A DNA stretch of 64,000 bases. Origin: a virus. The notes below the pieces were generated by a model. The model was not told the origin of the DNA and did not search any database. It saw only the letters and a program-made list of their open reading frames with translations. The stretch lies in the IMG/VR virus record IMGVR_UViG_3300020392_000004. One strand, given 5' to 3'. This document shows positions 41,547 to 64,000 of the stretch, in pieces. The translations under genes and the position numbers were made by a program. Position 1 is the stretch's first letter. Every line of letters begins with the position of its first letter.

Positions 41547-42270
41547 ATCTTTGGTGTTCGTCTAGTAAACGAACTTCGTCTCCTCTTAAAACAATAGACT
41601 TCCTATCTATATATCTTGCGTCTTTAGAGGGTGATTCTGCACCGTGTGGTATTCTTCCGTCAAACATTAAGAGACGATTCGGTTTGAATCCAACTCTTCC
41701 TATTTCATATCTATCCATGAGTTTTCTTGCACCCGTAGGGACATATCTGTCATAAAATCTTAAATCACCACCCCAGTTTTCATTCCAAAAAGTATTAGTG
41801 TAATATAAAAATGATAAATTATAATCGTCTTCCATACTACAATCAGAATGACAACTTCCGTCTAAACCGTGTGTTTGTGAGTTTGTTCCCATGTATTGAA
41901 ATCTTACCCACTCAAAAGCAAAATCAGTTCTAATCTTTCTATCAAACCAATACATTAAATGTGGAGTTCCATATTTGTGTGATTCACATTCTAATTTTAA
42001 GTATCTTCCGTCACCTGCTTCTCTTCCTCTGAAATATGAAGCTCCCCATAATTGGTGATTCGGTAAACCACCTCTACCACCGTCACCTTGAACTTCGTTA
42101 TGTTTTTGCCATGAGGTTCTTTGACTTAAAAAAAGGTCTACTGCTTGATGAAGTGAGGAATCTAGATAATTGTCTATAACATATACCTTATTACCAAGAG
42201 GCAACTCGGTTATATAAAAGGGAGAATCAATATCGATTCTTTCTATAGAGTTATAGGTTTTGCTCGGCAT
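41533..42270 (-). CDS. 2OG-Fe(II) oxygenase (prolyl hydroxylase-like)
   Basis: HSD, FLYY...W.ENWGGDL.F, PNRLLMFDG.IPH, R.SIV. Confidence 0.85.
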   Translation of the reverse strand: MPSKTYNSIERIDIDSPFYITELPLGNKVYVIDNYLDSSLHQAVDLFLSQRTSWQKHNEVQGDGGRGGLPNHQLWGASYFRGREAGDGRYLKLECESHKYGTPHLMYWFDRKIRTDFAFEWVRFQYMGTNSQTHGLDGSCHSDCSMEDDYNLSFLYYTNTFWNENWGGDLRFYDRYVPTGARKLMDRYEIGRVGFKPNRLLMFDGRIPHGAESPSKDARYIDRKSIVLRGDEVRLLDEHQRYANN

Positions 42271-44536: not shown

Positions 44537-45433
44537 TTAACTAGAAATCGGAGTTCCAGGCCACTGTTGTTGTAATACACCGTCCCATCTTGGAACTGGT
44601 GTTCTTCCTTGTCTTGCGTAAGTGGTTGGATTCTGATTTGAATATGTAGTCGGTGTTTGACCCTGTCTAGCATAAGTCGAAGGACTTCTATGATTGTAAG
44701 TAAATGGTGTCTGACCTTGTCTTGCATAAGTTGTTGGGTTCTGATTTGCATAGGTAAAAGGAGTTCGTCCTGTTGCCTGATATGTTGAAGGTGACCTAAA
44801 GTTATATGTAAACGGTGTTTGACCTTGTCTCTCGTATGTTGACGGAGATTGATAATCATAAGTAGACGGTGTTTGACCCTGTCTTTCATAAGTTGAAGGA
44901 GACTGATAATCATATGTGAAAGGTGTTTGACCTGTTCTTTGATATGTTGAAGGTGACCTATAATCGTAAGTAGAAGGTTGCCTTGCGTCTCTTATGTTTG
45001 GTTCTTGTGCTGACCTAATGTTTGGTTCTTGTGCTGACCTAATGTTTGGTTCTTGAGCATTAGCAGGGTATGTAAATGGTTGTTGTCCTGACCTAATATT
45101 AGGCTCCTGTGCTGACACTGGGTTTCTGTAAGTGAAAGGTGACCTATGATGATATGTAAAAGGTTGTCTTGCTGGTGCTTGATATGTAAAGGGTGACCTA
45201 TAATGATATGTAAAAGGTTGTCTTGCTGGTGCCTGATAGGTGAATGGTGACCTATAATGATATGTAAATGGACTTCTAGCAGGTGCTTGATATGTAAACG
45301 GTGACCTATAGTTATAAGTGAATGGTTGTCTTGCACTTGCAATATATGGGTTTTGAGTTCCGTATGGGCTCTGATAACTTGCACCGACTGGTTGTCTTGC
45401 TTGAAATGTAAATGGACTCTGATAAAATGGCAT
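44537..45433 (-). CDS. Gln/Pro/Tyr/Thr-rich repeat protein (mirror partner of 45436-46947)
   Basis: 31 xxP-anchored units of 6-12 aa. Confidence 0.85.
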   Translation of the reverse strand: MPFYQSPFTFQARQPVGASYQSPYGTQNPYIASARQPFTYNYRSPFTYQAPARSPFTYHYRSPFTYQAPARQPFTYHYRSPFTYQAPARQPFTYHHRSPFTYRNPVSAQEPNIRSGQQPFTYPANAQEPNIRSAQEPNIRSAQEPNIRDARQPSTYDYRSPSTYQRTGQTPFTYDYQSPSTYERQGQTPSTYDYQSPSTYERQGQTPFTYNFRSPSTYQATGRTPFTYANQNPTTYARQGQTPFTYNHRSPSTYARQGQTPTTYSNQNPTTYARQGRTPVPRWDGVLQQQWPGTPISS

Positions 45434-46791
45434 AATTATCTCTTCTGCATGTTATGGACTACAAAGTCATTTGCAAAGAAGTTAGCATTATCACTTACAC
45501 GAGTCAAGTGATAGACCTCATGTTCTCCTTCCAGTTTGTTAATATTTGATATTTTTGCAGTTGATTGATTGTTTAAAATCAATGATAATGAATCTACAAG
45601 AATATCCCCCTCTTCAATTAGGCCAGAGATTTCTCCACCCCAAGCTGCACCCATGGCAACTTCTTTTTCCCAATCTTCCATGTTTATGACACACCAACCT
45701 TTATCTTGAATCAACATTGGGTGTCCACCAGTCACACCAGTAATCTTACCGTTGACTTCTATATCATATAATTCACATACTCTAGGTTGCATAATTTCTT
45801 CGACCACTCCAACTTCTAGTGTATCTCCTAGTGTCATGACTGACATACCAATCTCTATAGACTCGATAGGTCTGTATGTATTGTCTCCCATCCATATCAT
45901 AGTTCCCATTGCGAAACAACCGTGTCCAGTAGGTAAGCCTGGTGAACCACCGCCTGGGTAGTAAACTGGTTGTCTTGCTTGACCGATATATGGACTCTGA
46001 TATGAGAACGGAACTGGTTGTCTTGCACTGCCCGGCTGTCGTGCATGATAGGTAAATGGGTTTTGAGCAGACCTAATGTTTGGTTGCTGAATATTCGCAG
46101 GATATGTAATTGGTTGTTGAGCAGACCTAATGTTTGGTTGCTGAATATTCGCAGGATATGTAAATGGATTCTGTCCATTCCTGATATTCGGTTGTTGAAT
46201 ATTTGCTGGATATGTAAATGGATTCTGTCCATTCCTGATATTAGGCTCCTGTGCTGACACTGGGTTTCTGTATGTAAACGGTGACCTATAGTTATATGTA
46301 AATGGACTCCTTGCTGATGCTTGATAAGTGAACGGAGACCTGTAGTTATATGTAAACGGTGACCTATGATTGTATGTAAAAGGTGACCTATGGTCGTATG
46401 TGAACGGATTCTGTCTGTTCCTTATATTCGGTTCCTGTGCATTTGCAATGTAAGGATATGGCTGTTGTGCATTTCTGATATTAGGTTCCTGTGCATTTGC
46501 CTGATAAGGATAAGGAGTTTGTTTATTCCTTATGTTTGGTTCTTGAGCATTTGCAATGTAAGGATATGGTTGTTGTGCGTCCCTAATGTTTGGTTCCTGT
46601 GCATTTGCAATATACGGATAAGGTTGTTGTGCATTTGCAATATAAGGTGACCCACCGTTTGCAATATAAGGATAAGGTTGTTGTGCGTCTCTTATATTTG
46701 GTTCTTGAGCATTTGCAATGTATGGATATGGATTCTGTGCATTTGCAATGTATGGAGAACCACCCTGTGCAATATATGGGTAAGGTTGTTG
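44606..46791 (-). repeat. Two coding arrays of degenerate 24/30-bp units (44606-45421 and 45976-46791)
   Basis: Tandem units such as tgctgacctaatgtttggttctt; includes an identical 35-bp direct repeat at 45096-45130 and 46238-46272. Confidence 0.9.
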
Positions 46792-46947
46792 TGTTGCCTC
46801 TTGACCTGAAGCATTATTCCACCCGCCTGGAGCTTTGATATAAATTTGGTCAACTGCTTTCCAAGTAGACGGGCCTGTCTTGACCCATGCACCTTGAGTT
46901 GCATTCCAACCTGATGGGGTTTTAACTTTCTGTGAACCTGACGCCAT
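45436..46947 (-). CDS. Fibre-associated Gln/Pro/Tyr repeat protein with C-terminal HINT (intein-like) domain
   Basis: Trp-rich N-terminus (WVKTG..TWKAVDQIYIK..GGW), 31 repeat units, then CFAMGTMI...TGGHP...NFFANDFVVHN. Confidence 0.88.
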   Translation of the reverse strand: MASGSQKVKTPSGWNATQGAWVKTGPSTWKAVDQIYIKAPGGWNNASGQEATQQPYPYIAQGGSPYIANAQNPYPYIANAQEPNIRDAQQPYPYIANGGSPYIANAQQPYPYIANAQEPNIRDAQQPYPYIANAQEPNIRNKQTPYPYQANAQEPNIRNAQQPYPYIANAQEPNIRNRQNPFTYDHRSPFTYNHRSPFTYNYRSPFTYQASARSPFTYNYRSPFTYRNPVSAQEPNIRNGQNPFTYPANIQQPNIRNGQNPFTYPANIQQPNIRSAQQPITYPANIQQPNIRSAQNPFTYHARQPGSARQPVPFSYQSPYIGQARQPVYYPGGGSPGLPTGHGCFAMGTMIWMGDNTYRPIESIEIGMSVMTLGDTLEVGVVEEIMQPRVCELYDIEVNGKITGVTGGHPMLIQDKGWCVINMEDWEKEVAMGAAWGGEISGLIEEGDILVDSLSLILNNQSTAKISNINKLEGEHEVYHLTRVSDNANFFANDFVVHNMQKR

Positions 46948-46973: not shown

Positions 46974-49031
46974 TTAGGAGTATAGAATCCATAAATCACC
47001 AACTGCTCCGTCTGAACCCGTAGGTGCAGAAGTTGACTGATAAATGTTTCTTGCAGTTCCACCGTTATTTGTTGCATTCGTAATTGTGACTGCACCAGTA
47101 TTAACTGCACTTGGTGTAATTGTTAAATTACCTGTAGATGCACCTGTAAATGAACCTGTTCCAAATGTGATTGCATCTGCACTTTCGTCCCAACCAATAA
47201 ACACATTGTCTGAACTTCCTCTCTCAATGACTAAACCTGCGTCATTTGAAGGTGAACCTGATGTTCCATTTCCTAATTCTATCAATGCATCTGATATTGT
47301 TGTGTTGGTTGAACTAACTGTTGAAGTTGTTCCGTTAACTGTTAAGTTTCCTGAAAGTGTTAAGTTTCCAAATTGAACATTACTGTTTGTTGCAACTGCC
47401 TGACCGATACTAACTTCACCTGAACTGATTGAAACACCAGTTCCACCACTGATATGAGCTCTTACTTCTGAAGCACTTGGGCCAGTATATGTAATTACAC
47501 CTGTAGAGTTATTATATGCTAATCCACCGTCTCCACCTGAATCTGTGACCGATATCGCTTGTCTTGCATTTGCATCTGCATATTGTGTTATTGAAGTTGC
47601 AACTGTTAAAGTATTACTTGCATCGTCATATGTTGTTGTGATACCTGTTCCTTCTTGTATCAATGCATTTACTCTATCGTCAACTCTTTCGTTTGTAAAA
47701 TATAAATTAGAAGAACCTTCTGATAATGCATCTGTATTTGCAAGAACTGAACCACCCAATGAAGTTGCAGAACCACCAATTGTTATACTGGAGTTTGCTA
47801 ACATTGAATTTAAAATTACACCTGAACCGATTGAAAAGTCTAAAGTTCCGTCTCCGTCTTCGTATGTGACTGCAATACCAGTTTCAGTATTAGATGATAC
47901 CATTCCACCAACAATATCTTGAACTCTTTCAGTAGTCATATAGAGATTACTTGACCCTTCTCCGATATCGTCTGTATCTAATGTAAGTGTATTTCCTAAT
48001 GCAACTGTGTTTGAATTTAATGTAATTGAACTATTTGCAAGTTTTGCGTTTGCAATTGAACCAGCAAGTTTATCGTTTGCAATTGAACCTGCTAACATGG
48101 CATTTGTTATACCACTTGCTTTTACTTGAACTGTATCAGAATCTATCTCTAAAGAACTATCATCTACTTGAACATTAAGTGTGACATCTCCTGATGTTCC
48201 ACCACCTGTTAGACCATTACCAGCAACTACTGATTCTATGTCACCAGCGTCATTTGTAAATGATATAACACCAGTTGAACTATTGTATGATAAGTCACCA
48301 CTAGCACTGATTGCACTTCTTGCTCTTGCATTTGTAAAATATTGATTTGTTGAACCTTCTGTTAGTGAATCTGTGTTCTCTGCACCACCGAGTATAACTG
48401 AATTACCCATTCCACTGTGGTTTGAACAATAGAAATACATAGGGTTATTTGATTCTTGGTCAAATGCAACTTCTGTATATGAACCACTTGAGCCTGGAGT
48501 TCCTACTTTATTATAAATTGAATAACCGTCTGTCATTTCTGAACCGTCTGCTGATTCAGAGAATCTTAATGGGTGTGAAGCGTTTGAACTATCTGACTGG
48601 TCAAATCTATAAACTACATTTGGAGTTAGTCTTAAAGGTTGTGAGGACGATTGACCGTCAAATGCATACTTATTACCACCGTCACTTATAACTGTGACAA
48701 CTACTCTATGATAATAAGGTGCAGTAGTATTGTTTAGTTGTTGTTCTACATCTAGTGTGACGGTTCCACTGGTTCCACCACCATCTAGGTTTGTTCCAGC
48801 TGTGACTCCTGTTATATCTCCAACTTGACCGTTGATAGTAAGAGTTCCAGCAGAATCATCATATGATAATGATACTCCTGTTCCAGCTGTTAGTAAAGAA
48901 TTTACTTGGTCGTCTATCTTTTCTAGGGCTGCAGTTCCGAATGCAGCTGCAGTTAAATCACCTGAACTGTCTAATACTTCGGTATCCCCTACGGATAGAC
49001 CATTTTTAATTTTAAAGTTTACATCTGCCAT
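46974..49031 (-). CDS. Tail fibre protein with cupredoxin-like insert
   Basis: TD.L.EGS.N.YFT..R repeats, GNLTVNGT, YRFDQSD...HP...YCSNHSGMG, C-terminal SAPTG....GDLW. Confidence 0.8.
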   Translation of the reverse strand: MADVNFKIKNGLSVGDTEVLDSSGDLTAAAFGTAALEKIDDQVNSLLTAGTGVSLSYDDSAGTLTINGQVGDITGVTAGTNLDGGGTSGTVTLDVEQQLNNTTAPYYHRVVVTVISDGGNKYAFDGQSSSQPLRLTPNVVYRFDQSDSSNASHPLRFSESADGSEMTDGYSIYNKVGTPGSSGSYTEVAFDQESNNPMYFYCSNHSGMGNSVILGGAENTDSLTEGSTNQYFTNARARSAISASGDLSYNSSTGVISFTNDAGDIESVVAGNGLTGGGTSGDVTLNVQVDDSSLEIDSDTVQVKASGITNAMLAGSIANDKLAGSIANAKLANSSITLNSNTVALGNTLTLDTDDIGEGSSNLYMTTERVQDIVGGMVSSNTETGIAVTYEDGDGTLDFSIGSGVILNSMLANSSITIGGSATSLGGSVLANTDALSEGSSNLYFTNERVDDRVNALIQEGTGITTTYDDASNTLTVATSITQYADANARQAISVTDSGGDGGLAYNNSTGVITYTGPSASEVRAHISGGTGVSISSGEVSIGQAVATNSNVQFGNLTLSGNLTVNGTTSTVSSTNTTISDALIELGNGTSGSPSNDAGLVIERGSSDNVFIGWDESADAITFGTGSFTGASTGNLTITPSAVNTGAVTITNATNNGGTARNIYQSTSAPTGSDGAVGDLWILYS

Positions 49032-52470: not shown

Positions 52471-52803
52471 TTACCTCGTCACGCCTGGGGTCACTGTTGC
52501 TTGTCCTTCGACAACTCTAGTCTTTTGACCACCTGAACTATTTATATTTAGGTCATATACATACCGACCTGCTTCTAAATTCGTAGTTTCAGAATCGGTC
52601 AAACTTAAAGTCACTTGTCCTGATGCAGCTGCAATACTTGTTGTGAATGTTGCAGATATTGCTGAAGAAGCATAAGTTTTTCTAATTTGTGCAGCTGCAG
52701 AATATCCCGTAAGATTTAATGCTGTCCCAGCTGCATCAGTCACATCTACTGTGATAGAAAAGTCTGTTCCTTGGTCAATGAATAAGTTTGCAATAATAGC
52801 CAT
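52471..52803 (-). CDS. Virion structural protein (BppU-N-like Ig fold)
   Basis: NLFIDQGTDF, NLTGY...AQIRK, GRYVYD, RVVEG...VTPGVT; late promoter at 52809-52816. Confidence 0.75.
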   Translation of the reverse strand: MAIIANLFIDQGTDFSITVDVTDAAGTALNLTGYSAAAQIRKTYASSAISATFTTSIAAASGQVTLSLTDSETTNLEAGRYVYDLNINSSGGQKTRVVEGQATVTPGVTR

Positions 52804-52823: not shown

Positions 52824-54419
52824 TTATCCCTCGCCAGAGATATATGGTGTTTGTCCACCGTCACCTTCACTTCCTTTTTGGAATTGTGCGTTTGGAACTG
52901 CTTGGTGTATCTTTTCTATACCTTGAGGTGCATGGACATATACCTCTTGTGCTTTTGCAACTACACCTTGGTTATTTACAAAGACACCTTTTACTTTTGC
53001 AACAGCTCCAACTGGTCTAGTTGTAGTGTATGGTTGTCTAGCAATATACGGAGAACTGTAAATATACGGTTGTGGTTGTTGGTGTATATAAGGAAATGGT
53101 TGTCTTCCTGTTGCACTACTCGTGACTTGTTGAGTTCTCTGAACAGAATATTGAGAAGGTGATTGATAATCATATGTAAAAGGACTTCTTGCATCTGCAA
53201 TATAAGGATATGGATTTTGTTTATCTCTTATATTAGGTTGTTGTATAGAAGCAGGATTATTATAAATCGAAGGTGATTGATAATCATATGTAAATGGTGT
53301 TTGACCTGTTCTTTGATATTCAGAAGGTGACTGATAATCATATGTGCTTGGTTGTTGGTATTGATATATTACTGGTTGTCTTGCATCCTTAATAGTTGGT
53401 TGTTGTCCCTGTCTTGCCTCTGCATATGGTGAGTTATATTCATATGTGCTTGGTGACCTATTTGGTTGTCGAGAAATATAAGGTTGTTGTGTTTCGAATG
53501 TTGGTGTTCTCCCCTGTCGAGAATATGTAAATGGTGACTGTGTCTGTGCTTGTGCTTGGCCTGGGATTTGGTAAGCGTGGTCTTCCCCTGAAAAGGGGTT
53601 AAAATAAAATGTTGTATTTTGAGCCTGTGTAATATATGGAACAGGTTGACCACCATTTGCAATATACGGATACGGATTTTGTGTCGATATTGCTTGAAAG
53701 GAACTTGGAGACCGTTTACTAGCATTTGGGATAGATGTTTGATATTGATATATGGCAAAGCCTGGAGAATCATCATCAAAGAAACGCCCTGGCGCCTGTG
53801 GAAACGGAGAAGATTGATAAGTTCCGAGATTCGGTTGTTGGTGTTGGTATATAACAGGATTTTGAACATTATGTGGTTGTGATACTCCCGCCTGTGCAAT
53901 TGGTCTCTGTGCATTAAAAGAAGATTGAACACTTGTTTGTTTGTTTCTAATTACTGGTTGTGTAAATTGTCCAATATAAGGAAATGGTGATTGATAATCA
54001 TATGTAAAAGGACTCTGTTTACTTACATCTTGTTTAGTAGTTTGTTTATTTCTTATATTCGGCTCTTGTGCGCTTGCAATATATGGATATGGTTGTTGTG
54101 CGCTTCTTATAAAAGGGTTCTGTCCTTGAGTTGAATTCTGATATGTAAACGGAGACTGATAATCATATGTGCTTGGTTGTTGACCCTGTCTTGCATATGT
54201 AAAAGGTTGTTGTGCGTCCTTAATAGTTGGTTGTTGATTCTGTGCTTGGTGGACATAGAAAGCAGGACTTTGGTAAATGAAAGGATATGGTTGTTGTCCT
54301 TGTCTATTTACTGAAACCTGTGTTATTCTTTGTGTTGTTTCAAAAGCTTGATATGCAACTTGACCCTGATAGGGTTGTTGGATTTGTGTCCCTTGATTTA
54401 TGTATATTTCATCAGCCAT
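52824..54419 (-). CDS. Gln/Pro/Tyr-rich repeat protein with internal mirror symmetry
   Basis: Same unit vocabulary (QEPNIRNK, QQPYPYIASA, QSPFTYDY, QSPSEYQRTG) as 44537-46947. Confidence 0.85.
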   Translation of the reverse strand: MADEIYINQGTQIQQPYQGQVAYQAFETTQRITQVSVNRQGQQPYPFIYQSPAFYVHQAQNQQPTIKDAQQPFTYARQGQQPSTYDYQSPFTYQNSTQGQNPFIRSAQQPYPYIASAQEPNIRNKQTTKQDVSKQSPFTYDYQSPFPYIGQFTQPVIRNKQTSVQSSFNAQRPIAQAGVSQPHNVQNPVIYQHQQPNLGTYQSSPFPQAPGRFFDDDSPGFAIYQYQTSIPNASKRSPSSFQAISTQNPYPYIANGGQPVPYITQAQNTTFYFNPFSGEDHAYQIPGQAQAQTQSPFTYSRQGRTPTFETQQPYISRQPNRSPSTYEYNSPYAEARQGQQPTIKDARQPVIYQYQQPSTYDYQSPSEYQRTGQTPFTYDYQSPSIYNNPASIQQPNIRDKQNPYPYIADARSPFTYDYQSPSQYSVQRTQQVTSSATGRQPFPYIHQQPQPYIYSSPYIARQPYTTTRPVGAVAKVKGVFVNNQGVVAKAQEVYVHAPQGIEKIHQAVPNAQFQKGSEGDGGQTPYISGEG

Positions 54420-54420
54420 A

Positions 54421-55719
54421 TCATGTCACAAACCATAAGTGACCGACACTAGTTGACCCAACACCTGTCGGTGCAGAAGACACTACCTCATAATCTAATT
54501 CGACATCGTCACCATCGATTTTCACTCCGTTAGATGTATTTACACTGAATGAACCTGAACCACTTAATGCAAGTCCAGCTCCACCACTTAAGTATGATTG
54601 AACATCTGAATCACCATATTGTGCAGAACCATTTATAGTTAGGGTATTATTTGCATCGTTATATGACAAAGATATACCTGTTCCACCGATTAAACCTTCA
54701 CCACCTGTAGTAGTTCCTGATAGATAATCTAATACTCTCTCTCCTGTAAAATAGAGATTAGTTCCACCCTCTGTGACTGTATCCGAGGTTTGTTGATTAG
54801 TTGGAACATATTTACTTGAAGAAGAATTATATACTAATATCTGTCCGTCTGTTGGTGAAGTAGTATCAACATCACTTAAATCTGTTATTTGGTGATTTGT
54901 AATACTTGATACTGTTCCAGTCAATGCACCTGTTGAGGCGTCTAATACAACTGAACCACCATGTTTAACATCACCAGTAATATCACCAGTGACATTACCT
55001 GTTAAATTACCAACCAATGCACTAGAAGTTATAGAACTAAATCCTGTTCCCACTCCACCTGTTATTGTTGCAGTTCCGTCTGTTATAGAAGGTGATTCAA
55101 AAGTATGTCCTGTATCGATTTTAACATCACCATTAATGAAAGTATTACCTTCATTTTGAATTTGATATCCTGATTGTAATGAAGTGGCTGCAGTTAGAGT
55201 TCCATTTAGAATTACTCCTGCTGAATTAGTATTGTAGATTGTGTTCGAAGCAGTCTCGGTAAACTTACCTCCACCGCCACCACCGTCAGCAGCGACTCCA
55301 CTTTCAGAACCAGTGTATGAATATATTGTTATGACATCATTAGCACTTGTTGCAGCGTTTATTAGTAATCCACTATTAAAAACATCACCAGAGCTTATTG
55401 CAGAAAAACCTGCTGTTCCTGACCCACCCTCGATTAGGTGATTACCATTTAAGTAAACTTGTATTTTACCTTGTCTATATTTTAAAACATTTCCATTTTG
55501 GTCTGGCCCTGAAAAAGTCACCTGGCCTGCGGTTGCAACATATTCAAATTGTTGAAAGAAGAATGTTTTATCTTCGATTACATTTATTGCATCTACTATA
55601 GTATTTGGACTTTTTAATGAGCCTCTTAAACCTGTAAGGCTCCCCACTTCATTTACAAGTGTGTTGTATGAACCTCTAAATTCATTTAGAGTTTGATTTT
55701 CATTTATTGTATTAGCCAT
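54421..55719 (-). CDS. Tail fibre protein
   Basis: TLNEFR..YN N-terminus, VYLNG domain, GNLTGNVTG, LSDVD...DGQILVYN, C-terminal SAPTG....GHLWFV. Confidence 0.75.
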   Translation of the reverse strand: MANTINENQTLNEFRGSYNTLVNEVGSLTGLRGSLKSPNTIVDAINVIEDKTFFFQQFEYVATAGQVTFSGPDQNGNVLKYRQGKIQVYLNGNHLIEGGSGTAGFSAISSGDVFNSGLLINAATSANDVITIYSYTGSESGVAADGGGGGGKFTETASNTIYNTNSAGVILNGTLTAATSLQSGYQIQNEGNTFINGDVKIDTGHTFESPSITDGTATITGGVGTGFSSITSSALVGNLTGNVTGDITGDVKHGGSVVLDASTGALTGTVSSITNHQITDLSDVDTTSPTDGQILVYNSSSSKYVPTNQQTSDTVTEGGTNLYFTGERVLDYLSGTTTGGEGLIGGTGISLSYNDANNTLTINGSAQYGDSDVQSYLSGGAGLALSGSGSFSVNTSNGVKIDGDDVELDYEVVSSAPTGVGSTSVGHLWFVT

Positions 55720-55921
55720 GTGTTTTCTCTATAAGTTCCTTCAATAAACCTTTTATATCACTCAATTCATCTTTTAGATTATTTATGTCTTCTCTCTGAT
55801 TTCTCATAATTTGTCTTCTTCTCATTGTAAGACGATATTGTTCAACATCAGTATTAATGATTGCATGAGACTCTTCGTCTCTAACTAAATGTGAATGTCC
55901 TTCTACTTTTAAATCTGCCAT
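55712..55921 (-). CDS. Conserved hypothetical T4-like phage protein
   Basis: KVEGHSHLVRD..S.AIINTD plus C-terminal coiled coil. Confidence 0.75.
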   Translation of the reverse strand: MADLKVEGHSHLVRDEESHAIINTDVEQYRLTMRRRQIMRNQREDINNLKDELSDIKGLLKELIEKTHG

Positions 55922-58900
55922 TATGCTAATGCCATGACTCTCAATGCAGATACCATTGGAACTACACTAGAGTTTTGACCTTGTCCTACAATTTTAATTA
56001 TGAAAGAAGAGAACTCTGGCAAGTCATTTACGGTATATTCATATTCCTTAAAGTTTCTTGCATCATTCTCAACTGCACTATCGGGTGAACCATCTGTATT
56101 AAAGAATTCAAATCCTATATCGTCAAGTGGTGTTTGTTCGTCACTCTTGACAATTTTAAACATATACTTCAATTCAGTTGTCGGTGGTCTAAAGTTATCT
56201 GCAATCACCTTGAGTGAAGTAGCTGGATTTTTAAGGTTTACCTTTCTTGTCACATAGATAAATGCATTTTGGTCACCTTCGGGTTCTGTTGAAGGTATAT
56301 GTGTAATATCTGATGGTAATGACACCGTCACTCCGTCAACTTTCTTACCACTTTGATTATCTATGTTATTAATTCTATTTGATATTGCAATACAACCAAT
56401 CGTTCCAACATCTATCACTGGTGATACATTTGGATTTCTTGACAACATTTGAGTTATCAATCTGAATGACCTTTGTGATTGCATTTTATTTGTTTCGTTA
56501 ACCACTGAAGCAACTATGCCTGGAGCGTCTAGGAATGTATTATCATTCAGTGTTATAAAGTTGTTTGTTGTTCTTCTATTGTAAACTGTATCTCCTGAAC
56601 TTATGAATCCTTCTGGCGATTTCATTGCAGTTGTATTGATACTTGATACTACTTTACAACTTCCAACTTGTGTAGAAGGTATCATAGTATGTAATGAATC
56701 AAAGATATAGTTTCTAGATACTTGGACTGATGAACCACCACCTGTTGTTGTTTCTAATGCAGTATAACCACTTACAAATTTACTTTTATCTATAAAACTA
56801 GTTAGATTACATGCAACATTGAATGAATCAATACCTATATTTGCAACACCATTAGTTGAGGAGTCTCCAAATGTTGTATTGATTGCAGCGACTGGGATAC
56901 CTCCTAGTGTATCACCGATTGCCACCACTGTGATTGTTAAGTCTGCTGTTCCACCGTCAAAGTTATCGAATGTGACTGTATTACCGACTGCATATCCTTG
57001 GCCTGGATTTACAATTCTTATACCATTTGTTGTCCCTATTGCACCACTTGCTATCTCTACATTTATTATCATACCTGTTCCACTTCCATCTGTGGAATCA
57101 GCAGTTTGTGCGTTATGATTACCGTCACTTGGTGTCTCTGATAAACTTGGACTTCCTACTTCTAATACAGAACCTACTCTATCTCCGACTACTCCTGATA
57201 TTTGAACATTTGAACTTTCGTCATATAATCCATGATTGTATGCAGAAACTTTCACATTATTACTACTTACAGTTGTTAATAATGGATTTTTTCCTAATGT
57301 ATCTAATTCAAGGTCTTTATTTTCAAAATGTATAGCAGGAATTTTAGTAGTATCAAACTTACATATCTTCATAGTAAATTTCATATCATCTGTTTGTTCT
57401 GCTGTCCATGTTGAAGCATTCTGTGATAAGAATAATGAACCTGCGTATGGTTGACCTGATATCTGTTGTCCTGAAGCTAAATCAGTTTCACCCATTCTTG
57501 ATATCCATTGTTCATATTCATTTGAGTTTGAGTAAACAATCAATGCATATTCTTTCTTCTCTTCAACATAAACTGGTGATTCGAATGAGAATGTTGTTGC
57601 AACTGTTCCGTCAGCAGATATATTAACATCACTTGGATTCTTTGTGACTGTTGAGAAAGGTAATACTATTTGGCCTGGATATCCATTTACCATGTTTCTA
57701 ATTTCAACTGAAACTGGCATGTGTGTATCTTTTGCTTGGAAGAATACATCTACGGAAGATATAAACATTCCTCCACTTGCCTCACATAAGAATGATTGTG
57801 CAAGTGGGTCACCCCAACCTCTTTCTAACCTAGAACCAATTCTAAATTCTAATTCAGGTGGTAAAGGTGGAACTGGTATTGCTGGTGGTTCTGGCACCTC
57901 TATTGGGAATACAATTACTGGGTCTGCCACAATAGGTTCAGGTATCGGTATAGTATCGACTGGAATATCGGGTGCAATCGTATCGGTTGGAGATATGTTT
58001 AATCTTTCACCTCTTCTTTGTATCTGTCTCTCACCCTCTGTTAATTGTGATATAACTCTTCCATTCCTTGTTGAAACAATTTCTGTTTGTGAACTTGACA
58101 ATAATCCTTGAGCTTGGTATACTGCTGAACCTGAACTTGGTGGATTAGATAAGTTATGGAATGAAGAGGTTAACTTTAATTCTCTTTGTCCTGTAGGGAA
58201 TCTTTGAGTTTCAGTATTTGGTAATTCAAAGAACCCTCTCAATCTTCCATTACCGTCTGATTTAAGATTTGAAGAGACTGTAGTTCCACCGTCCTGTGAA
58301 TATGCAGTTGATTGTGGTCTCACAAACTTATCTACTCTGATTCCGTCAAAGAAGAAGTAATGGTTTGTATTTGGTTTTAAGTTTGTTGCATCTATCTCAA
58401 TAGTTCTTGCCCTCATGAAAGGGATAATTGCAACTGATACTATTCTATCGTTTCTTGTTTCTACAAAATCTTCTACAACACTTGTAGTGATACCTGTTCT
58501 AGTTTGTATCTCGGGTGACTCTGTAATTTCTCTAGTGACTTCTTGACCCGCTTGCCATTCACCACCTTGAGCTGGGTCACCTGACCATGAACCTGCTGTA
58601 GTTGATTGAACTTCTGATTCAACTGATGAAGGTTCTCCAACCCATGTTGTTTGCCATGAGTTCCAAACTGTTCCTAAAGAGTTTCCAACTCCTGACATAA
58701 CAGCGTCAAAGTTTCCTTCTCTATTAACTCTAACATCGGGTAATCTTTCTGTATCGTTCCATATGTCGGTGCCTGGCGTTAATTTAACATTACCGATAAA
58801 TGCAAAGACATGATATGGGTTAACATTAATATGTCTTGAAGCTTTATCTTGATTAATATAATTTACTTCTGTAAATGGTAGAGTAATCAAGTCACCAGTC

Positions 58901-61900
58901 TGTTGATAGTTCGTTGAATTTGTTGTATCTAAATTCAAATCAAAGAACTGTTGCATATTTTGAGGTCTTAACATACCCATTTTTGTATCGATAGAACATT
59001 TATAATCGGGGTGGTTAACATCACCAATCTTATGTCCTCTAAAGTTATCGACCAAGAATCCTGACTTGAATCTATCGAATCCGTCTGCATCTAATACCTG
59101 TGCAGATTGTGTATCTTTTTCTAATAGAGATAGGGAAGTGACTCTTTCTAGGTTTGTGACTCTTTTATTAATACGACCTATGTCTTTCATGGTGTATCGT
59201 CTATGGTCAAAACTTCTAACTTTAATCTCTGATAATTTTTTTGTAAATGCTGGTATGAACAATTCAAACATTTCTATTGAATCGTCAATTGCTTTAGGTC
59301 TAGTTGGTGATAATGACGGGATACCTGTTGATATTTCAAATAGTCCGTCTTTACCAAGATAGATTCTATCTATTCTAGAAGTATAGAATTCTATATCTCC
59401 AACTGTTGCACCACCCTTCATAGGTGTGTCTAAAGCAGCTGCACCTGCTCCTGTAAATACTTTGTTTTCATATTTGAATGGGTCACCACTTAATCCACTT
59501 GATATGTTTGCTGGACTACTTGGGTCGGGATTTGCAGAAGAGAAGTTTGCATCTGAAAATAATTGTGCAACTGTTGGTCTATAATCGACTGCATCTGATA
59601 GTTCGTATTCACCATCAGGTTCTAATCCACCCATATCTATTCTGTTCGGTGAGTAAACTGGTATTTCTTTATAGTCTAAACCTGCGTCTGTATATGAATT
59701 TACATCATAAAACTCTCCACCATTTGAAGTGAAGTTATCGAAGACTATGAGAATTGAATTGTTTGGTGTAGGTTCACCAGGCTTCAGTGTAATTTTTGCA
59801 ATATCATAGAAACCATCTCTCTGACCATTGTCAAAGAAATATCTTTGTGTGATATTATCTGACCCTGTTGTTATTAGGTCTATATCTGCAGCTGCATTTG
59901 TTATTTGACCTACACATGTTTCTCCGTCTGTAAAGACAAAGTCATTTAAGTAATAGAAAAATGTTGACCCTGAATTTGCATATTTAACAATTCTTGCTTG
60001 GGCACCTGATGTTTGACCTATGATTACTTCGTCTTTTACAAAGTCTGTTCCTGTATAAGAAGCACCACCTAATCTTCCACTTGGAGGTAAAGGTGTAGAA
60101 CCACCGATACCTTCATAGACTGCTCTAACTGATAATACATCTGCAACACCTAATGTTATGTCTTTGTTATCATAACATGTTCCGTAATCTGAAGCACCTG
60201 CTACAAATGCAGTATCTACTATTGCACAACGAGACCTATTTAATACTTTGTTTCTATGTTCAGGTGAATCGTCAATAACTGTAAATGATACTAGATATTT
60301 TACTCCGTCTGAAGCAGTAGTATCGAACTGAATCGATTGACCACCACCACCGAGGTTAGATGCAGTTGGAGGTGAACTTGCAAAATCTATCTCTGCACCT
60401 AATACATTTCCTCCACCTGTATTACCGTCAGTATTTAAAATTGATAACTGGAAATTATCTCTATCTACTGTAGAGAAGGTTTCACCTGCTCCAGTTGTGA
60501 TTGTGACCTTACCACCTGAAGCTGCAATCACTTTTTGTCTTCTTATTGATATTCTATCAGGTGTATGTTTTTTTACATAATCTCTTGGCCATGCATATAT
60601 TGCTACTGCTTGGTCTTGGTCAAATAGTTTGACTCTCCTTCTTGTTGCAGAAGGGTTGACATCAAATGCTGTGACACTACTTGTTGCAACTGTTTGAGCT
60701 GTGACTGAATCTGTGACGGTAGAAATTACTTGTTCGTCACCATTACCATCGATAATGATATCACCCTCTTTAAGTTCAGCAGTAAATCTTGTTCCAAAAC
60801 CAGTGATATTACCATTGGCTGCAATTGATACACTTCCTGTTAATGTGTTATCACCGTCTGCAACTGCATCTGCTGTAAAGTCTGCATCACCTGAACCACT
60901 TCTTTCTTGTCCTATACCTCTAACTCTGTCTATGTTAAATGTTCTAACTTGGTTTGCAATACCTCTAAAGTTTTCTCCGACTACAGTGAATGTTGCAGTT
61001 CCGTCACCTTCTGATGTAATTGTCTCACCATGCACGAATGTTCCTACAACATCATGAACATACATATTTACACCGTTGACATGACCTACGATACCTGTTG
61101 CACCTGATGTTCCACCGATAACTCTATCACCAACATTTGAATTTGATATTGAGCTACCAGCTTTTAATTTAGTGAACATTTTTATATCAAAGAGATATAA
61201 ACCTGTGTTATCGTTTGTGGCTCCAAAGTTGTCTATATGTCTAACTCTTGCAAAACCAATATGGTCTTCACTGTTTAGTGTTCCTGCTACTGCTGTGATA
61301 CTTGGGAATAATTTACATATTGCATATGGTGTGATTGCACTTGCACCACTCTCATTACCAAAATCGGGAAACCCAAAACCATTTTTGACTTTTATGAATT
61401 GTCCTAATCTTGTTGGAGTATTTGCAGTATTTAATGTGACTGTTTGTCTTGCTTTGTTTATGTTTAGATTGGAAGTTCCAATTTTATCTATCTCATATCC
61501 CTTAACATATGCCTTTCCTGGCGATACTTGGAATACAAATTTTTCTTCTTTACCACCTTGTGCTTTGAGATAGAATCCTCTGTTTGTTGAATCGTCTAAA
61601 TGTTCTCTTAAACTATGTGTAAACTGATTGACTATGAAATCACCGTTTGCATCGAAAGTTCTTCGTGCAAGAGTGTTTTCAATCTCTGTATACATAGGTC
61701 GATTAGTATGAAGTTCAATCTGACCTTTGTTAACTCTAACTAACTCTATGAAGTTTGCATCTTCTGTGGAAGTTAAATCATATTTGGAAAGAGTTAATGT
61801 AAACTTGAGTCTATCAGCACCAGCTGCATTTTCATTTGAAGTTCCCTGTGCATTATCATAGAGAGAACTATCTTCTGCAACTGATATTAATTCTTCTTTT

Positions 61901-62580
61901 ATTGTAAGACCTATTCTATTTGAAGGTTTTGCATTGTATTTTTCTAGAATTAATTGTTGTTCGTCTACTTTTACAAAGAATCCTCTACAAAATACTACAC
62001 CCTCTGATATATTTGCAATAGAAGTTCTTCCAACTGGAGTTGTTGAAGCAGCTGCTACTTTAAAATCATTATTACTTGCTGTATCTTCTGCTACTGTTCC
62101 ACTTGAATCGAATCCACACTTAACTAAAGTTTCGTCTCCAGCGAATGAGAATGAGTTGTTTGCATCTGTTCCTTGTCTTTCTAATCGAACATATAGAGTA
62201 ATGAAATCTGTTGAGGTTTCTGCATCTGAATTGATAACTTTTGCAACGACACCTGTTGTTTGTCCTTTTATAAACTGACCATGGTAAGAAGTTCTGTATG
62301 ATTCTACTGCAGCGTCACCACTTGAATTAGGGTTTGCAGCTAAAACTTTTACATAATATAAATCAAAGTCAATATCTGACTGGGCTCCTGTGACGATGGA
62401 ACCTTCTTTGAAGAAATGGTCACCGAATCTTTCTATTTGATTCTGTAATACAGATTGTGATTGTGTTAGTTCCCTTGCTTGTAAGGGACGACCAGCTCTG
62501 TATAACAGTTTATGAAACTGTTTTGATTCCGAATAATCATCGTAATAGGGTGATATGTTTAAATCAGTCTTTTCTGCCAT
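55921..62580 (-). CDS. Large virion structural protein (DUF4815/VrlC-like)
   Basis: LNISPYYDDY, PLQARELTQSQ, AAGADR, LARRT.D..GDF, YTMKDIG, RFKSGF.VDNF, DPLAQSF. Confidence 0.88.
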   Translation of the reverse strand: MAEKTDLNISPYYDDYSESKQFHKLLYRAGRPLQARELTQSQSVLQNQIERFGDHFFKEGSIVTGAQSDIDFDLYYVKVLAANPNSSGDAAVESYRTSYHGQFIKGQTTGVVAKVINSDAETSTDFITLYVRLERQGTDANNSFSFAGDETLVKCGFDSSGTVAEDTASNNDFKVAAASTTPVGRTSIANISEGVVFCRGFFVKVDEQQLILEKYNAKPSNRIGLTIKEELISVAEDSSLYDNAQGTSNENAAGADRLKFTLTLSKYDLTSTEDANFIELVRVNKGQIELHTNRPMYTEIENTLARRTFDANGDFIVNQFTHSLREHLDDSTNRGFYLKAQGGKEEKFVFQVSPGKAYVKGYEIDKIGTSNLNINKARQTVTLNTANTPTRLGQFIKVKNGFGFPDFGNESGASAITPYAICKLFPSITAVAGTLNSEDHIGFARVRHIDNFGATNDNTGLYLFDIKMFTKLKAGSSISNSNVGDRVIGGTSGATGIVGHVNGVNMYVHDVVGTFVHGETITSEGDGTATFTVVGENFRGIANQVRTFNIDRVRGIGQERSGSGDADFTADAVADGDNTLTGSVSIAANGNITGFGTRFTAELKEGDIIIDGNGDEQVISTVTDSVTAQTVATSSVTAFDVNPSATRRRVKLFDQDQAVAIYAWPRDYVKKHTPDRISIRRQKVIAASGGKVTITTGAGETFSTVDRDNFQLSILNTDGNTGGGNVLGAEIDFASSPPTASNLGGGGQSIQFDTTASDGVKYLVSFTVIDDSPEHRNKVLNRSRCAIVDTAFVAGASDYGTCYDNKDITLGVADVLSVRAVYEGIGGSTPLPPSGRLGGASYTGTDFVKDEVIIGQTSGAQARIVKYANSGSTFFYYLNDFVFTDGETCVGQITNAAADIDLITTGSDNITQRYFFDNGQRDGFYDIAKITLKPGEPTPNNSILIVFDNFTSNGGEFYDVNSYTDAGLDYKEIPVYSPNRIDMGGLEPDGEYELSDAVDYRPTVAQLFSDANFSSANPDPSSPANISSGLSGDPFKYENKVFTGAGAAALDTPMKGGATVGDIEFYTSRIDRIYLGKDGLFEISTGIPSLSPTRPKAIDDSIEMFELFIPAFTKKLSEIKVRSFDHRRYTMKDIGRINKRVTNLERVTSLSLLEKDTQSAQVLDADGFDRFKSGFLVDNFRGHKIGDVNHPDYKCSIDTKMGMLRPQNMQQFFDLNLDTTNSTNYQQTGDLITLPFTEVNYINQDKASRHINVNPYHVFAFIGNVKLTPGTDIWNDTERLPDVRVNREGNFDAVMSGVGNSLGTVWNSWQTTWVGEPSSVESEVQSTTAGSWSGDPAQGGEWQAGQEVTREITESPEIQTRTGITTSVVEDFVETRNDRIVSVAIIPFMRARTIEIDATNLKPNTNHYFFFDGIRVDKFVRPQSTAYSQDGGTTVSSNLKSDGNGRLRGFFELPNTETQRFPTGQRELKLTSSFHNLSNPPSSGSAVYQAQGLLSSSQTEIVSTRNGRVISQLTEGERQIQRRGERLNISPTDTIAPDIPVDTIPIPEPIVADPVIVFPIEVPEPPAIPVPPLPPELEFRIGSRLERGWGDPLAQSFLCEASGGMFISSVDVFFQAKDTHMPVSVEIRNMVNGYPGQIVLPFSTVTKNPSDVNISADGTVATTFSFESPVYVEEKKEYALIVYSNSNEYEQWISRMGETDLASGQQISGQPYAGSLFLSQNASTWTAEQTDDMKFTMKICKFDTTKIPAIHFENKDLELDTLGKNPLLTTVSSNNVKVSAYNHGLYDESSNVQISGVVGDRVGSVLEVGSPSLSETPSDGNHNAQTADSTDGSGTGMIINVEIASGAIGTTNGIRIVNPGQGYAVGNTVTFDNFDGGTADLTITVVAIGDTLGGIPVAAINTTFGDSSTNGVANIGIDSFNVACNLTSFIDKSKFVSGYTALETTTGGGSSVQVSRNYIFDSLHTMIPSTQVGSCKVVSSINTTAMKSPEGFISSGDTVYNRRTTNNFITLNDNTFLDAPGIVASVVNETNKMQSQRSFRLITQMLSRNPNVSPVIDVGTIGCIAISNRINNIDNQSGKKVDGVTVSLPSDITHIPSTEPEGDQNAFIYVTRKVNLKNPATSLKVIADNFRPPTTELKYMFKIVKSDEQTPLDDIGFEFFNTDGSPDSAVENDARNFKEYEYTVNDLPEFSSFIIKIVGQGQNSSVVPMVSALRVMALA

Positions 62581-62613: not shown

Positions 62614-64000
62614 TTACATCTGAATAATCAGTTTAATATCTTCGATTTGGTCTGCAGCTCTTGTCACTGCACCCCTATTTTCGACATACATGATATTACC
62701 TGAATATTTTACTATTTCAGGGAATGAAGAATCTACTGAACTTACTGTTCCGATACTTGAACTCCCTTTATAGATTGTATCTGTTGCAGAAAAGTTTACA
62801 TATGTTCCACCACTGTTTGCTTGTGGGATATGAGAAACTACATTTCCACTAATTGATACTATTCTAGAAACTGCCACACCTGAACCGTCTGCATTTGCAT
62901 CACGGATAATGTCGTCTACTGATAGACCTGTGACAGATGACAATGTCATTTTGTTATAAGCTGCATAGTTAGCGTCTGTTGCAACTGTTGTTCCTGTAGA
63001 GAATGGGTCTTGAATCAAACCAATTCGTCTGAAATCGTTATCTGTTGGGAAATCACCTGAACCTTCAGCAAACTCTAATCTAGAGTTCACCATAACAAGG
63101 TTTCCACCTAATTCTTCGACTGGGTTTGCACCGTGTCCATATAAAGGTGATATGATAGGTGTGACCACTGCACTTGTGGTAGGAGTTCCAACTCCTGATA
63201 TACCGTCAATATTAATTGAAGCTCTTCGATAACCTGTTCCATTATTTGTGACTGTTATATGTGATACAACTCCTGATGCATTAACATGAACTGTGCATTG
63301 TGCAGAAGAACCGTCACCATTAATAGCAACAGTTTCATGTGTTTGTGAGGCTGTATAACCAGCTCCACCGTTCACAACTTTAACATGTAAAATACCACCG
63401 TCTATTGCGTCATTCTCTACATTCCATTGTGAACTTCCGTCATCGGATACTCCACCTAGAGCAGTCTTTGCACCAATAGTTTTAACAGGCATGAAATCTG
63501 TAGTAGTAAATTTAATTGTATCGGCAGCTGATACAGTATACATATACTTCCAAAGATATCCTCGTCCTGTCACGGTTCCAGTATCACTAGTTTCAACTAA
63601 TGCAGTTGAACTTGTTCCTGTTGGTTTTACTGTTGATTTTTGAAGAACTCCATTTGCATCTGTTCCTGTTCTAATACATTTGTAAACATTGAAATCCTCT
63701 GTGATTACATAAAATTTTGAATCGTATAGATTACTAGAGGAAGTTGCATTTGAAGTTGAAGAAGCTGATATTTCATGGTCATACTGGTCGTATATAGTAT
63801 TTCCTGTTGAGTCCCAGTTTCTTCGTGATAGTGCATGAGAAACATCTGCTGAAGATACTTTCTTCAATGCTACCATATCTGAATATGCGTCCATTTCTTC
63901 ACCTACTGAATTTGCTGGTGAAGGTGGTGCCGTGTCGTCTGTCCAAGGGAAAGGTCTCCCAATGAACATATATGTCGAGGAAGTTCCTTCCCCAAAATCT
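62614..64000 (-). CDS. gp8: Baseplate wedge subunit gp8 (5' end outside window)
   Basis: FIGRP.PW, FYV.T.DFNVYKC, GYLWKYMY, GHGANPVEELG, YSG.IMYVENR..V.RA.DQ.EDIKLI. Confidence 0.9.
   Translation of the reverse strand, partial: DFGEGTSSTYMFIGRPFPWTDDTAPPSPANSVGEEMDAYSDMVALKKVSSADVSHALSRRNWDSTGNTIYDQYDHEISASSTSNATSSSNLYDSKFYVITEDFNVYKCIRTGTDANGVLQKSTVKPTGTSSTALVETSDTGTVTGRGYLWKYMYTVSAADTIKFTTTDFMPVKTIGAKTALGGVSDDGSSQWNVENDAIDGGILHVKVVNGGAGYTASQTHETVAINGDGSSAQCTVHVNASGVVSHITVTNNGTGYRRASINIDGISGVGTPTTSAVVTPIISPLYGHGANPVEELGGNLVMVNSRLEFAEGSGDFPTDNDFRRIGLIQDPFSTGTTVATDANYAAYNKMTLSSVTGLSVDDIIRDANADGSGVAVSRIVSISGNVVSHIPQANSGGTYVNFSATDTIYKGSSSIGTVSSVDSSFPEIVKYSGNIMYVENRGAVTRAADQIEDIKLIIQM

What the first reader, a model, noticed from the sequence alone, without database searches (positions are those of the whole stretch)
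52824..54419. A third protein uses the same complementary code as an intramolecular hairpin
Seen: N-half units QQPTIKDA, QQPFTYARQG, QQPSTYDY, QSPFTYQNSTQG, QNPFIRSA, QQPYPYIASA, QEPNIRNK, (QTTKQDVSK), QSPFTYDY, QSPFPYIGQF, TQPVIRNK have lengths 8,10,8,12,8,10,8,9,8,10,8. They line up with C-half units read backwards: RSPFTYDY, QNPYPYIADA, QQPNIRDK, QSPSIYNNPASI, QTPFTYDY, QSPSEYQRTG, QQPSTYDY, RQPVIYQY, QQPTIKDA, NSPYAEARQG, RSPSTYEY (8,10,8,12,8,10,8,8,8,10,8). The same rules hold: PxI[RK] units face PxTYxY units, and PYPYI-type 10-mers face RxG-ending 10-mers. The centre is irregular with aromatic/acidic loops (GRFFDDDSPG, FYFNPFSGEDH). Inference: a single-chain hairpin stalk with a possibly branched, receptor-binding tip. 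It independently supports the code seen in the two-gene pair.
Basis: partly seen in the sequence, partly recalled or inferred. Interest (0 to 1): 0.9.

Follow-up and report, generated by a model that had tools for sequence, protein, structure and literature searches.

The report
Phage fibre that zips onto itself
A 531-residue protein of an uncultured marine T4-like phage has two arrays of short repeats that match each other in reverse order, length for length and type for opposite type, here and in diverged relatives; the chain most likely folds back and zips onto itself into a thin virion fibre of a design not described before.

Summary
ORF 52824-54419 (minus strand, 531 aa) has an N arm (residues 62-160) and a C arm (321-418) of 11 units each. 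Read in opposite directions, 10 of 11 pairs have equal length and 10 of 11 have complementary types. Read in the same direction, only 7 of 11 are complementary. The shuffle P is 1.5e-5, or 1.2e-3 when the 8/10 alternation is kept.

The pattern holds in orthologues of 35-45% identity that have different unit orders. A 7-mer subfamily shows six architectures, each with exactly mirrored arms, which implies concerted indels. One orthologue pairs six 4-mers with six different 4-mers. There is no DNA inverted repeat between the arms.

The termini are conserved and the centre is the most variable part. AlphaFold2 predicts a beta-hairpin apex at 267-286. A chain that folds back on itself is therefore the best reading, but it is not shown: AlphaFold2 leaves the arms unstructured.

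The gene lies in a conserved fibre module between T4 gp8-like and neck genes. It has no Pfam, PHROG, PDB or isolate-phage match.

This scan had already found mirror-complementary two-gene pairs on other DNA. This protein is the single-chain form.

The parts
52824..54419 (-). Whole gene, 531 aa; Q 17%, P 11%, Y 9%; repeat protein P0001
   Evidence: ORF and translation. 417 metagenomic homologues.
54297..54419 (-). Conserved N-terminal segment (residues 1-41) with a strand-like motif that resembles the C-terminal strands
   Evidence: 45% mean identity across 43 orthologues and no gaps. Near-invariant positions E4, I5, N8, Q14-Y17.
53940..54236 (-). N arm, residues 62-160: 11 units with types K G Y W K C K (9-mer) Y C K
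   Evidence: Segmentation and typing.
53715..53909 (-). Extra N-side segment, residues 171-235, with the acidic/aromatic loop at 211-220. Candidate side branch; it has no counterpart on the C side.
   Evidence: The arms' mirror centre is at about residue 240, while the apex is at about 277. The loop is conserved only in the two closest relatives.
53562..53621 (-). Apex: predicted beta-hairpin, residues 267-274 and 279-286, around a conserved NPxxGED turn
   Evidence: AlphaFold2 strands with pLDDT about 65-80 in two independent runs. The motif is conserved in 18 proteins of two subfamilies.
53166..53459 (-). C arm, residues 321-418: 11 units with types Y G K Y Y G Y W K C Y. This is the complement of the N arm read backwards.
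   Evidence: N arm against C arm scores z = 7.1.
52872..53021 (-). Conserved C-terminal beta domain, residues 467-516 (four predicted strands)
   Evidence: 51% mean identity. AlphaFold2 strands at 480-506 with pLDDT 71-77.
52471..52803 (-). Downstream 110-aa gene, similar to a T5 L-shaped tail fibre assembly protein; always follows the zipper gene
   Evidence: phrog_3304 E = 2e-25 and PF23926 E = 1.3e-3, below cutoff. Present in L001, L004 and L005 at 69-81% identity.
54421..55719 (-). Upstream 432-aa fibre-like gene that ends in a conserved SAP..G[DH]LW motif; always precedes the zipper gene
   Evidence: Synteny.
44537..46947 (-). Context: two-gene mirror pair. P0003 (45436-46947) carries a C-terminal Hint domain; P0002 (44537-45433) follows it. 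Both use the same unit alphabet.
   Evidence: The mirror-complement score of P0003 against P0002 is 47, z = 10.8.

Best explanation
P0001 is a structural fibre protein of an uncultured marine T4-like myophage. Its chain runs out along the N arm, reverses at a small beta-hairpin apex near residue 277, and returns along the C arm.

The two extended arms zip together antiparallel, unit against unit. Each unit is a short strand of 4-12 residues that begins with a Q-x-P anchor. A unit pairs only with a unit of equal length and of the opposite type: a basic/aliphatic 'IR' 8-mer with an aromatic 'TY' 8-mer, a PYPYI-type 10-mer with an RxG-type 10-mer, and a 12-mer with a 12-mer. The order of the units therefore fixes both the partner and the register.

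The conserved N-terminal strand and the C-terminal beta domain end up together at the base, where the protein docks to the neighbouring fibre or baseplate proteins. The variable centre (apex plus an N-side excursion) is distal and is the likely host-contact end.

Shown: the mirror complementarity, its conservation through concerted changes in both arms, and the gene context.
Inferred: physical contact between the arms, the intrachain topology, the oligomeric state (probably trimeric, as in other fibres), and the role in adsorption.
For: 1. In P0001, 10 of 11 unit pairs are complementary in mirror order against 7 of 11 in direct order, P = 1.5e-5 or 1.2e-3.
2. Unit-level alignment in 43 orthologues: the mirror-complement score is far above shuffles in the 8/10-mer group (z = 4.4-10.4 in 13 proteins; P0001 z = 6.6). 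The direct-complement score is mostly near shuffle level (z = -1.0 to 3.8). Mirror exceeds direct in 34 proteins, equals it in 5 and is lower in 4.
3. When the arms are aligned on unit length only, blind to type, the 8-mer pairs are IR/TY 39 times and same-type 2 times. Direct alignment gives 10 IR/TY against 27 same-type.
4. The 7-mer subfamily has six different architectures, each with the N arm equal to the reversed C arm. This includes the positions of the 9-mer and 11-mer irregular units (the gaps are visible).
5. P0104 pairs six QSEY-type 4-mers in the N arm with six RQP[VL]-type 4-mers in the C arm.
6. Next to the conserved apex, P0001 has a PYI-type unit before it and an RxG-type unit after it. 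P0007 has the two types swapped.
7. There is no DNA inverted repeat between the arms, only direct repeats. Duplication therefore cannot create the mirror order.
8. The termini are conserved (45-51% identity) and the centre is not (18% identity, 36% gaps).
9. The apex beta-hairpin is predicted twice.
10. Cognate arms match best: N arm against C arm z = 7.1, against z = 0.2-3.4 for arms of P0002 or P0003.
11. The gene lies between the gp8 and DUF4815 baseplate genes and the gp13-like and gp15 neck genes. Synteny is conserved in three other phage contigs. It is the fastest-evolving gene of the module.
Against: - No structural support for arm pairing. AlphaFold2 leaves residues 1-266 and 288-474 almost entirely below pLDDT 50.
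- One orthologue cluster (P0009) lacks 36 residues of the C arm with no matching loss in the N arm. This is either tolerated or an assembly collapse between direct repeats.
- About 15 of the 43 aligned homologues show no mirror signal above shuffles with my unit parser (z below 2). Examples are P0012, P0022, P0039, P0046, P0063, P0104, P0106, P0112 and P0117. The parser was tuned to 8/10-mers.
- The apex lies about 37 residues from the arms' mirror centre, so an unpaired excursion of about 65 residues has to be assumed.
- The N arm also shows partial self-complementarity (z = 4.6).
- Orthologues share ancestry, so the pair counts are not independent events.
Confidence: 0.6

Rival explanations
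1. The arms pair antiparallel, but between chains. Two or more extended chains lie head to tail, with the N arm of one chain on the C arm of another. This gives a rod with identical ends and no intrachain hairpin.
For: Mirror complementarity within one sequence fits an antiparallel homodimer as well as a hairpin. No tool gave contacts that decide between the two.
Against: - The central 160 residues are not self-complementary about the dyad at residue 240.
- A conserved apex is predicted as a tight beta-hairpin at 267-286, flanked by complementary unit types.
- The split two-gene version has its gene boundary exactly where the hairpin would turn.
- A rod with two identical ends is unusual for a virion fibre (general knowledge).
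Confidence: 0.15
2. The arms do not touch each other. The mirror order arises because both arms bind a common third component (for example the neighbouring fibre), or from the repeat grammar plus shared ancestry.
For: The units alternate 8/10, which by itself gives many matches: direct order already yields 7 of 11. Orthologues are related, so the counts are inflated.
Against: - Six distinct 7-mer architectures have exactly matched indels in both arms.
- Unit types switch together.
- A type-blind alignment gives 39 opposite-type 8-mer pairs against 2 same-type.
- The alternation-preserving null still gives P = 1.2e-3 for this one protein.
Confidence: 0.08
3. The repeat region is an intrinsically disordered, low-complexity linker or adhesive tract with no fixed structure. 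Only the termini and the small apex fold.
For: AlphaFold2 pLDDT is below 50 over both arms. The composition is rich in Q and P.
Against: Disorder does not explain the conserved unit lengths, the mirror order or the concerted indels. Oligomeric fibres are often modelled badly as monomers (general knowledge).
Confidence: 0.07

Closest known systems
Needle domain (D11) of the T4 long tail fibre tip protein gp37
   Same: It is a fibre of a T4-type phage in which the chain runs out to a receptor-binding tip and comes back. The collar domain D10 is built from residues 811-881 and 1010-1026, which flank the needle (PMC6957217). The tip is distal and the base is made from both flanks.
   Different: No sequence or profile similarity. 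There are no HxH iron sites. The gp37 needle has no alphabet of complementary repeat units. The arms here are about 100-125 residues long and are built of 4-12-residue units. The trimeric state is known for gp37 and not tested here.
Two-gene mirror pairs of the same repeat family: P0003/P0002 in this window, P0249/P0250 in L001, and pairs reported by this scan on other DNA (e1-5703445, e1-5790583)
   Same: Same unit alphabet, same pairing rules and the same antiparallel order. A similar terminal beta motif sits at the base (weak, E = 0.028).
   Different: In the pairs the two arms are separate polypeptides, and the first ends in a Hint domain where the turn would be. P0001 is one chain with a beta-hairpin apex and no Hint domain.
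Triple beta-helix fibres with 8-residue repeats (T4 gp5 C-terminal needle, gp12 and tailspike stalks; own knowledge)
   Same: Short strand-per-unit repeats of about 8 residues build a long thin phage fibre.
   Different: Those are three parallel identical chains with one repeat type. Here two unlike repeat types face each other in antiparallel order. There is no sequence match.
Antiparallel lateral pairing of repeats in spectrin alpha/beta dimers, and acidic/basic keratin pairs (own knowledge)
   Same: The partner and the register are set by complementary repeat arrays.
   Different: Those units are 106-residue helical bundles or coiled-coil heptads, not 4-12-residue proline-anchored strands. 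There is no relation in sequence or biology.

Membership tests
Unnamed Q/P/Y repeat fibre family of marine T4-like phages (metagenomic only) | Conserved N-terminal segment and conserved C-terminal beta domain that flank proline-anchored repeat arrays | tested here: met
   417 homologues, many covering 97% of the query. Termini are 45-51% identical across 43 sequences.
Unnamed Q/P/Y repeat fibre family of marine T4-like phages (metagenomic only) | Fixed place in the module: DUF4815 giant gene, ~67-aa gene, ~400-430-aa fibre, this gene, ~110-aa LtfC-like gene | tested here: met
   Window and loci L001, L004 and L005.
T4 gp37 needle-type out-and-back fibre tip | Sequence or profile similarity to gp37 or to any solved fibre chain | tested here: not met
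   No Pfam or PHROG hit. The orthologue profile has no PDB match at E up to 1.
T4 gp37 needle-type out-and-back fibre tip | HxH motifs that coordinate iron along the needle | tested here: not met
   No HxH motif in the translation.
T4 gp37 needle-type out-and-back fibre tip | The chain leaves the base and returns to the same base | tested here: inconclusive
   Implied by the mirror complementarity and the predicted apex hairpin, but no model or contact data exist for the arms.
T4 gp37 needle-type out-and-back fibre tip | Homotrimer | not testable with these tools
Hint-bearing split zipper proteins (P0003 type) | C-terminal Hint domain directly after the repeat arm | tested here: not met
   P0001 has no Hint hit, while P0003 has one (PF14890, E = 2.7e-5).
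Collagen-like or polyproline-II triple helices | Gly at every third residue, or unit lengths that are multiples of three | tested here: not met
   Units are 4, 7, 8, 10 and 12 residues long and have no G-X-Y periodicity.
Triple beta-helix (gp5C type) | A single 8-residue repeat type in three parallel chains | tested here: not met
   Two or more unlike unit types stand in mirror order. Same-type direct pairing is not what is conserved.

The most novel reading that the evidence does not exclude
These proteins use a modular, sequence-addressed pairing code for extended polypeptide strands. At least five kinds of complementary unit pairs are seen: IR/TY 8-mers, PYPYI/RxG 10-mers, 12/12, 7/7 with matched 9- or 11-mer irregular units, and QSEY/RQPV 4-mers. 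The code sets partner choice and register much as base pairing does for nucleic acids. It would build a fibre fold that current predictors do not model, and it works both within one chain (this gene) and between two chains (the neighbouring pair).
Probability: 0.45. Interest if true: 0.9.

Novelty: new variant of a known kind. Interest (0 to 1): 0.8.

Why it matters
If the arms really zip by unit type, this is a simple natural rule for making long, thin protein rods of defined length, register and partner from very short repeats. That would interest protein designers. It would also be a new fibre fold class for structural virology.

The family is common in metagenomes of marine T4-like phages related to those of SAR11 and OM43, and is absent from sequenced isolates. 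It is the fastest-evolving gene of its fibre module, so it is a candidate host-range determinant in some of the most abundant virus-host systems in the ocean.

The single-chain form reported here is the natural control for the two-gene pairs. It shows the same rules operating where no partner choice is needed. It also points to the turn as the place where the gene can be split or can receive a Hint domain.

Tried and rejected
- AlphaFold2 on the full protein with 43 orthologues: mean pLDDT 39, arms unstructured.
- AlphaFold2 on the apex fragment (residues 230-325) with 18 sequences: only the same 2x8-residue hairpin is confident.
- Complex prediction with three copies each of the N arm (42-170) and the C arm (311-446): no answer, score 0.00, controls not run. 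This is evidence neither for nor against binding.
- Pfam, PHROGs, PDB profile search and tblastn against 50,697 phage records: no match. Pelagibacter phage Mosig has no such gene next to its VrlC gene.
- ESM Atlas: the top four clusters are all viral; three carry only generic automatic names, and the Pfam families listed for two of them (Cementoin, Keratin_B2) cover under 30% of members. No model is held.
- Full-text search for four unit motifs: nothing relevant.
- Constant-sum boundary test: brittle to a single indel; P = 0.034 for P0001.
- Length-only alignment: not discriminating for P0001.
- The idea that the mirror order reflects a DNA palindrome is rejected: there are only three short, imperfect inverted repeats, unrelated to the arms.
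- Search for a fused arm-Hint-arm form: none among four Hint-region hits, and all 20 Hint-bearing proteins end within 13 residues after the terminal HN.
- Residue-level mutual information within IR/TY pairs gave high values. I do not interpret them, because the pairs are not independent.
- No whole genome is held for this window.

Full report
**What is there.** The minus-strand ORF 52824-54419 encodes a 531-residue protein (P0001) with 17% Gln, 11% Pro and 9% Tyr. All genes of the window run on the minus strand.

The neighbourhood is the baseplate-to-neck part of a T4-like myophage:
- a gp8-like gene (62614-63969);
- a 2219-aa DUF4815/VrlC-like gene (55921-62580), whose DNA resembles Pelagibacter phage Mosig and Methylophilales phage Melnitz at 68-70% identity;
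- several fibre-like genes;
- two 2OG-Fe(II) oxygenase genes;
- a gp13/14-like neck gene and a gp15 gene.

P0001 has no Pfam, PHROG or PDB match and no match in 50,697 phage records. It does have 417 homologues in marine metagenomes, all unnamed.

**Check of the observation.** The N arm is residues 62-160 and the C arm is 321-418, with eleven units each.
- Read in opposite directions, ten pairs have equal length. Ten are complementary in type: six pairs of an IR-type with a TY-type 8-mer, three pairs of a PYPYI-type with an RxG-type 10-mer, and one pair of 12-mers.
- The only irregular pair is a 9-mer facing an 8-mer.
- Read in the same direction, only seven pairs are complementary.
- Shuffling the C-arm units reaches the observed score with P = 1.5e-5. 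Shuffling that preserves the alternation of 8-mers with longer units gives P = 1.2e-3.

One caution applies. The length series alone is nearly a palindrome within each arm, so lengths by themselves do not separate mirror order from direct order in this protein. The unit types do.

**Homologues.** This is the strongest evidence.
- I aligned each of 43 full-length homologues against its own reverse at the level of units. In the 13 proteins built of 8- and 10-mers, the mirror-complement score lies 4.4 to 10.4 standard deviations above shuffles. The direct-complement score is mostly near the shuffle mean (z = -1.0 to 3.8). Mirror beats direct in 34 proteins, ties in 5 and loses in 4.
- When the arms are aligned on length only, blind to type, the facing 8-mers are of opposite type 39 times and of the same type twice. 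The direct alignment gives 10 opposite and 27 same.
- These orthologues are only 35-45% identical to P0001 and have different unit orders, so the two arms have been rearranged together.
- A subfamily built of 7-mers shows six architectures (for example 7x6,11,7,6; 7x6,9,9; 7x4,9,7,7,6; 7x5,9,9). In each, the N arm equals the C arm read backwards, including the position of the odd 9- or 11-mer. The matching gaps are visible in the alignment.
- One diverged member pairs six QSEY-type 4-mers in the N arm with six RQP[VL]-type 4-mers in the C arm.
- Next to the conserved apex, P0001 has a PYI-type unit before it and an RxG-type unit after it. P0007 has the two types the other way round.
- DNA duplication gives direct repeats, not mirror order. 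The gene contains only direct DNA repeats and no inverted repeat between the arms. The mirror order must therefore be maintained by selection on the protein.

**Exceptions.**
- P0009 lacks 36 residues of the C arm only.
- About fifteen homologues give no signal above shuffles with my parser.
- Some relatives made almost only of TY-type units (P0088, P0098), or with another order (P0011, P0019-P0025), are not self-complementary and may need a partner in trans.

**Topology.**
- Both termini are the best conserved parts (45% and 51% mean identity). The centre is the worst (18% identity, 36% gaps).
- AlphaFold2 predicts a beta-hairpin at 267-274 and 279-286 around a conserved NPxxGED turn, in two separate runs. 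This motif is shared with the 7-mer subfamily.
- The split two-gene version of the family has its gene boundary, and a Hint domain, exactly where the turn would be.

These points favour one chain folding back on itself, with both termini at the base.

The apex (about residue 277) does not coincide with the mirror centre of the arms (about 240). The N side carries about 65 extra residues (171-235), which include the acidic/aromatic loop at 211-220.

An extended antiparallel dimer remains possible. I give it 0.15.

**Structure prediction.** AlphaFold2 leaves both arms below pLDDT 50. This neither supports nor refutes the model, because fibres that fold only as oligomers are often modelled badly as single chains (own knowledge).

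**Specificity.** The N arm of P0001 matches its own C arm (z = 7.1) better than it matches any arm of the two other repeat proteins of the window (z = 0.2-3.4). Those two match each other (score 47, z = 10.8). The same rules hold in the pair of a related phage that has different unit counts.

**Context and function.**
- In three other phage contigs, which represent three subfamilies, the gene sits in the same place. It follows a ~400-430-aa fibre-like gene that ends in a conserved SAP..G[DH]LW motif. It precedes a ~110-aa gene similar to the T5 L-shaped tail fibre assembly protein.
- The position between gp8 and the neck genes corresponds to the place of gp9-gp12 and wac in T4 (own knowledge).
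- Against those three contigs the protein is 35-41% identical, while its five neighbours are 43-84% identical. This is typical of a host-contact protein, but may also reflect fast repeat turnover.

I therefore read it as a baseplate- or fibre-attached virion fibre whose distal centre contacts the host. This role is inferred.

**Comparison with what is known.**
- The nearest known design is the needle of T4 gp37, where the chain leaves the collar domain, forms the needle and returns (PMC6957217). P0001 shares that out-and-back logic and the phage type. It shares no sequence similarity and no HxH iron sites, and gp37 has no alphabet of complementary units.
- Triple beta-helices share the ~8-residue unit, but they are parallel and of one repeat type.
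- No paper in the library contains the unit motifs.
- This scan had already reported mirror-complementary two-gene pairs on other DNA (e1-5703445) and in this window (e1-5790583). The present gene is the single-chain form.

**Verdict.**
- Observation: confirmed.
- Antiparallel pairing of the arms: about 0.85 in total, the sum of the hairpin and between-chain readings plus other antiparallel arrangements.
- Intrachain hairpin: 0.6.
- Receptor-binding, branched tip: plausible and untested.
- Novelty: a new variant of the out-and-back phage fibre, with a pairing rule that has no described precedent.

Noticed in passing
window 45436-45970 (minus): P0003 ends in a Hint domain that starts at Cys343 and ends in HN plus four residues. 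The next gene, P0002, starts right after its stop codon. All 20 Hint-bearing family members fetched end within 13 residues after the terminal HN, and no fused arm-Hint-arm form was seen. The Hint domain sits where the hairpin turn is in P0001, so it may cleave itself off or ligate the two arms.
   Followed up: partly
window 41533-42270 and 39929-40618 (minus): Two 2OG-Fe(II) oxygenase genes (PF13640 E = 1.8e-7; PF13759 E = 4e-17) lie just downstream of the proline-anchored repeat genes. They are candidates for hydroxylating the anchor prolines or other fibre residues.
   Followed up: no
window 54421-55719 and 46974-49031 (minus); L001, L004, L005: Both fibre-like genes that precede a zipper gene end in a conserved SAP..G[DH]LW motif. 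The motif is kept in three related contigs. It may be a docking site for the base of the zipper.
   Followed up: partly
P0104 (homologue, 477 aa): A new pair of unit types: six QSEY-type 4-mers in the N arm face six RQP[VL]-type 4-mers in the C arm. This hints at Tyr/Pro and Glu/Arg contacts.
   Followed up: partly
P0009 versus P0008 (homologues): P0009 lacks 36 residues of the C arm, between two copies of the same short repeat, with no matching loss in the N arm. This is either an assembly collapse or a tolerated unpaired end.
   Followed up: no
P0088, P0098, P0011, P0019-P0025 (homologues): Family members made almost only of TY-type units, or with a non-mirror order, are not self-complementary. 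They may pair with a separate partner protein.
   Followed up: no
window 52471-52803 (minus): The 110-aa LtfC-like gene is 69-81% identical across phages in which the zipper protein is only 35-41% identical. It is a conserved helper next to a fast-evolving fibre.
   Followed up: partly
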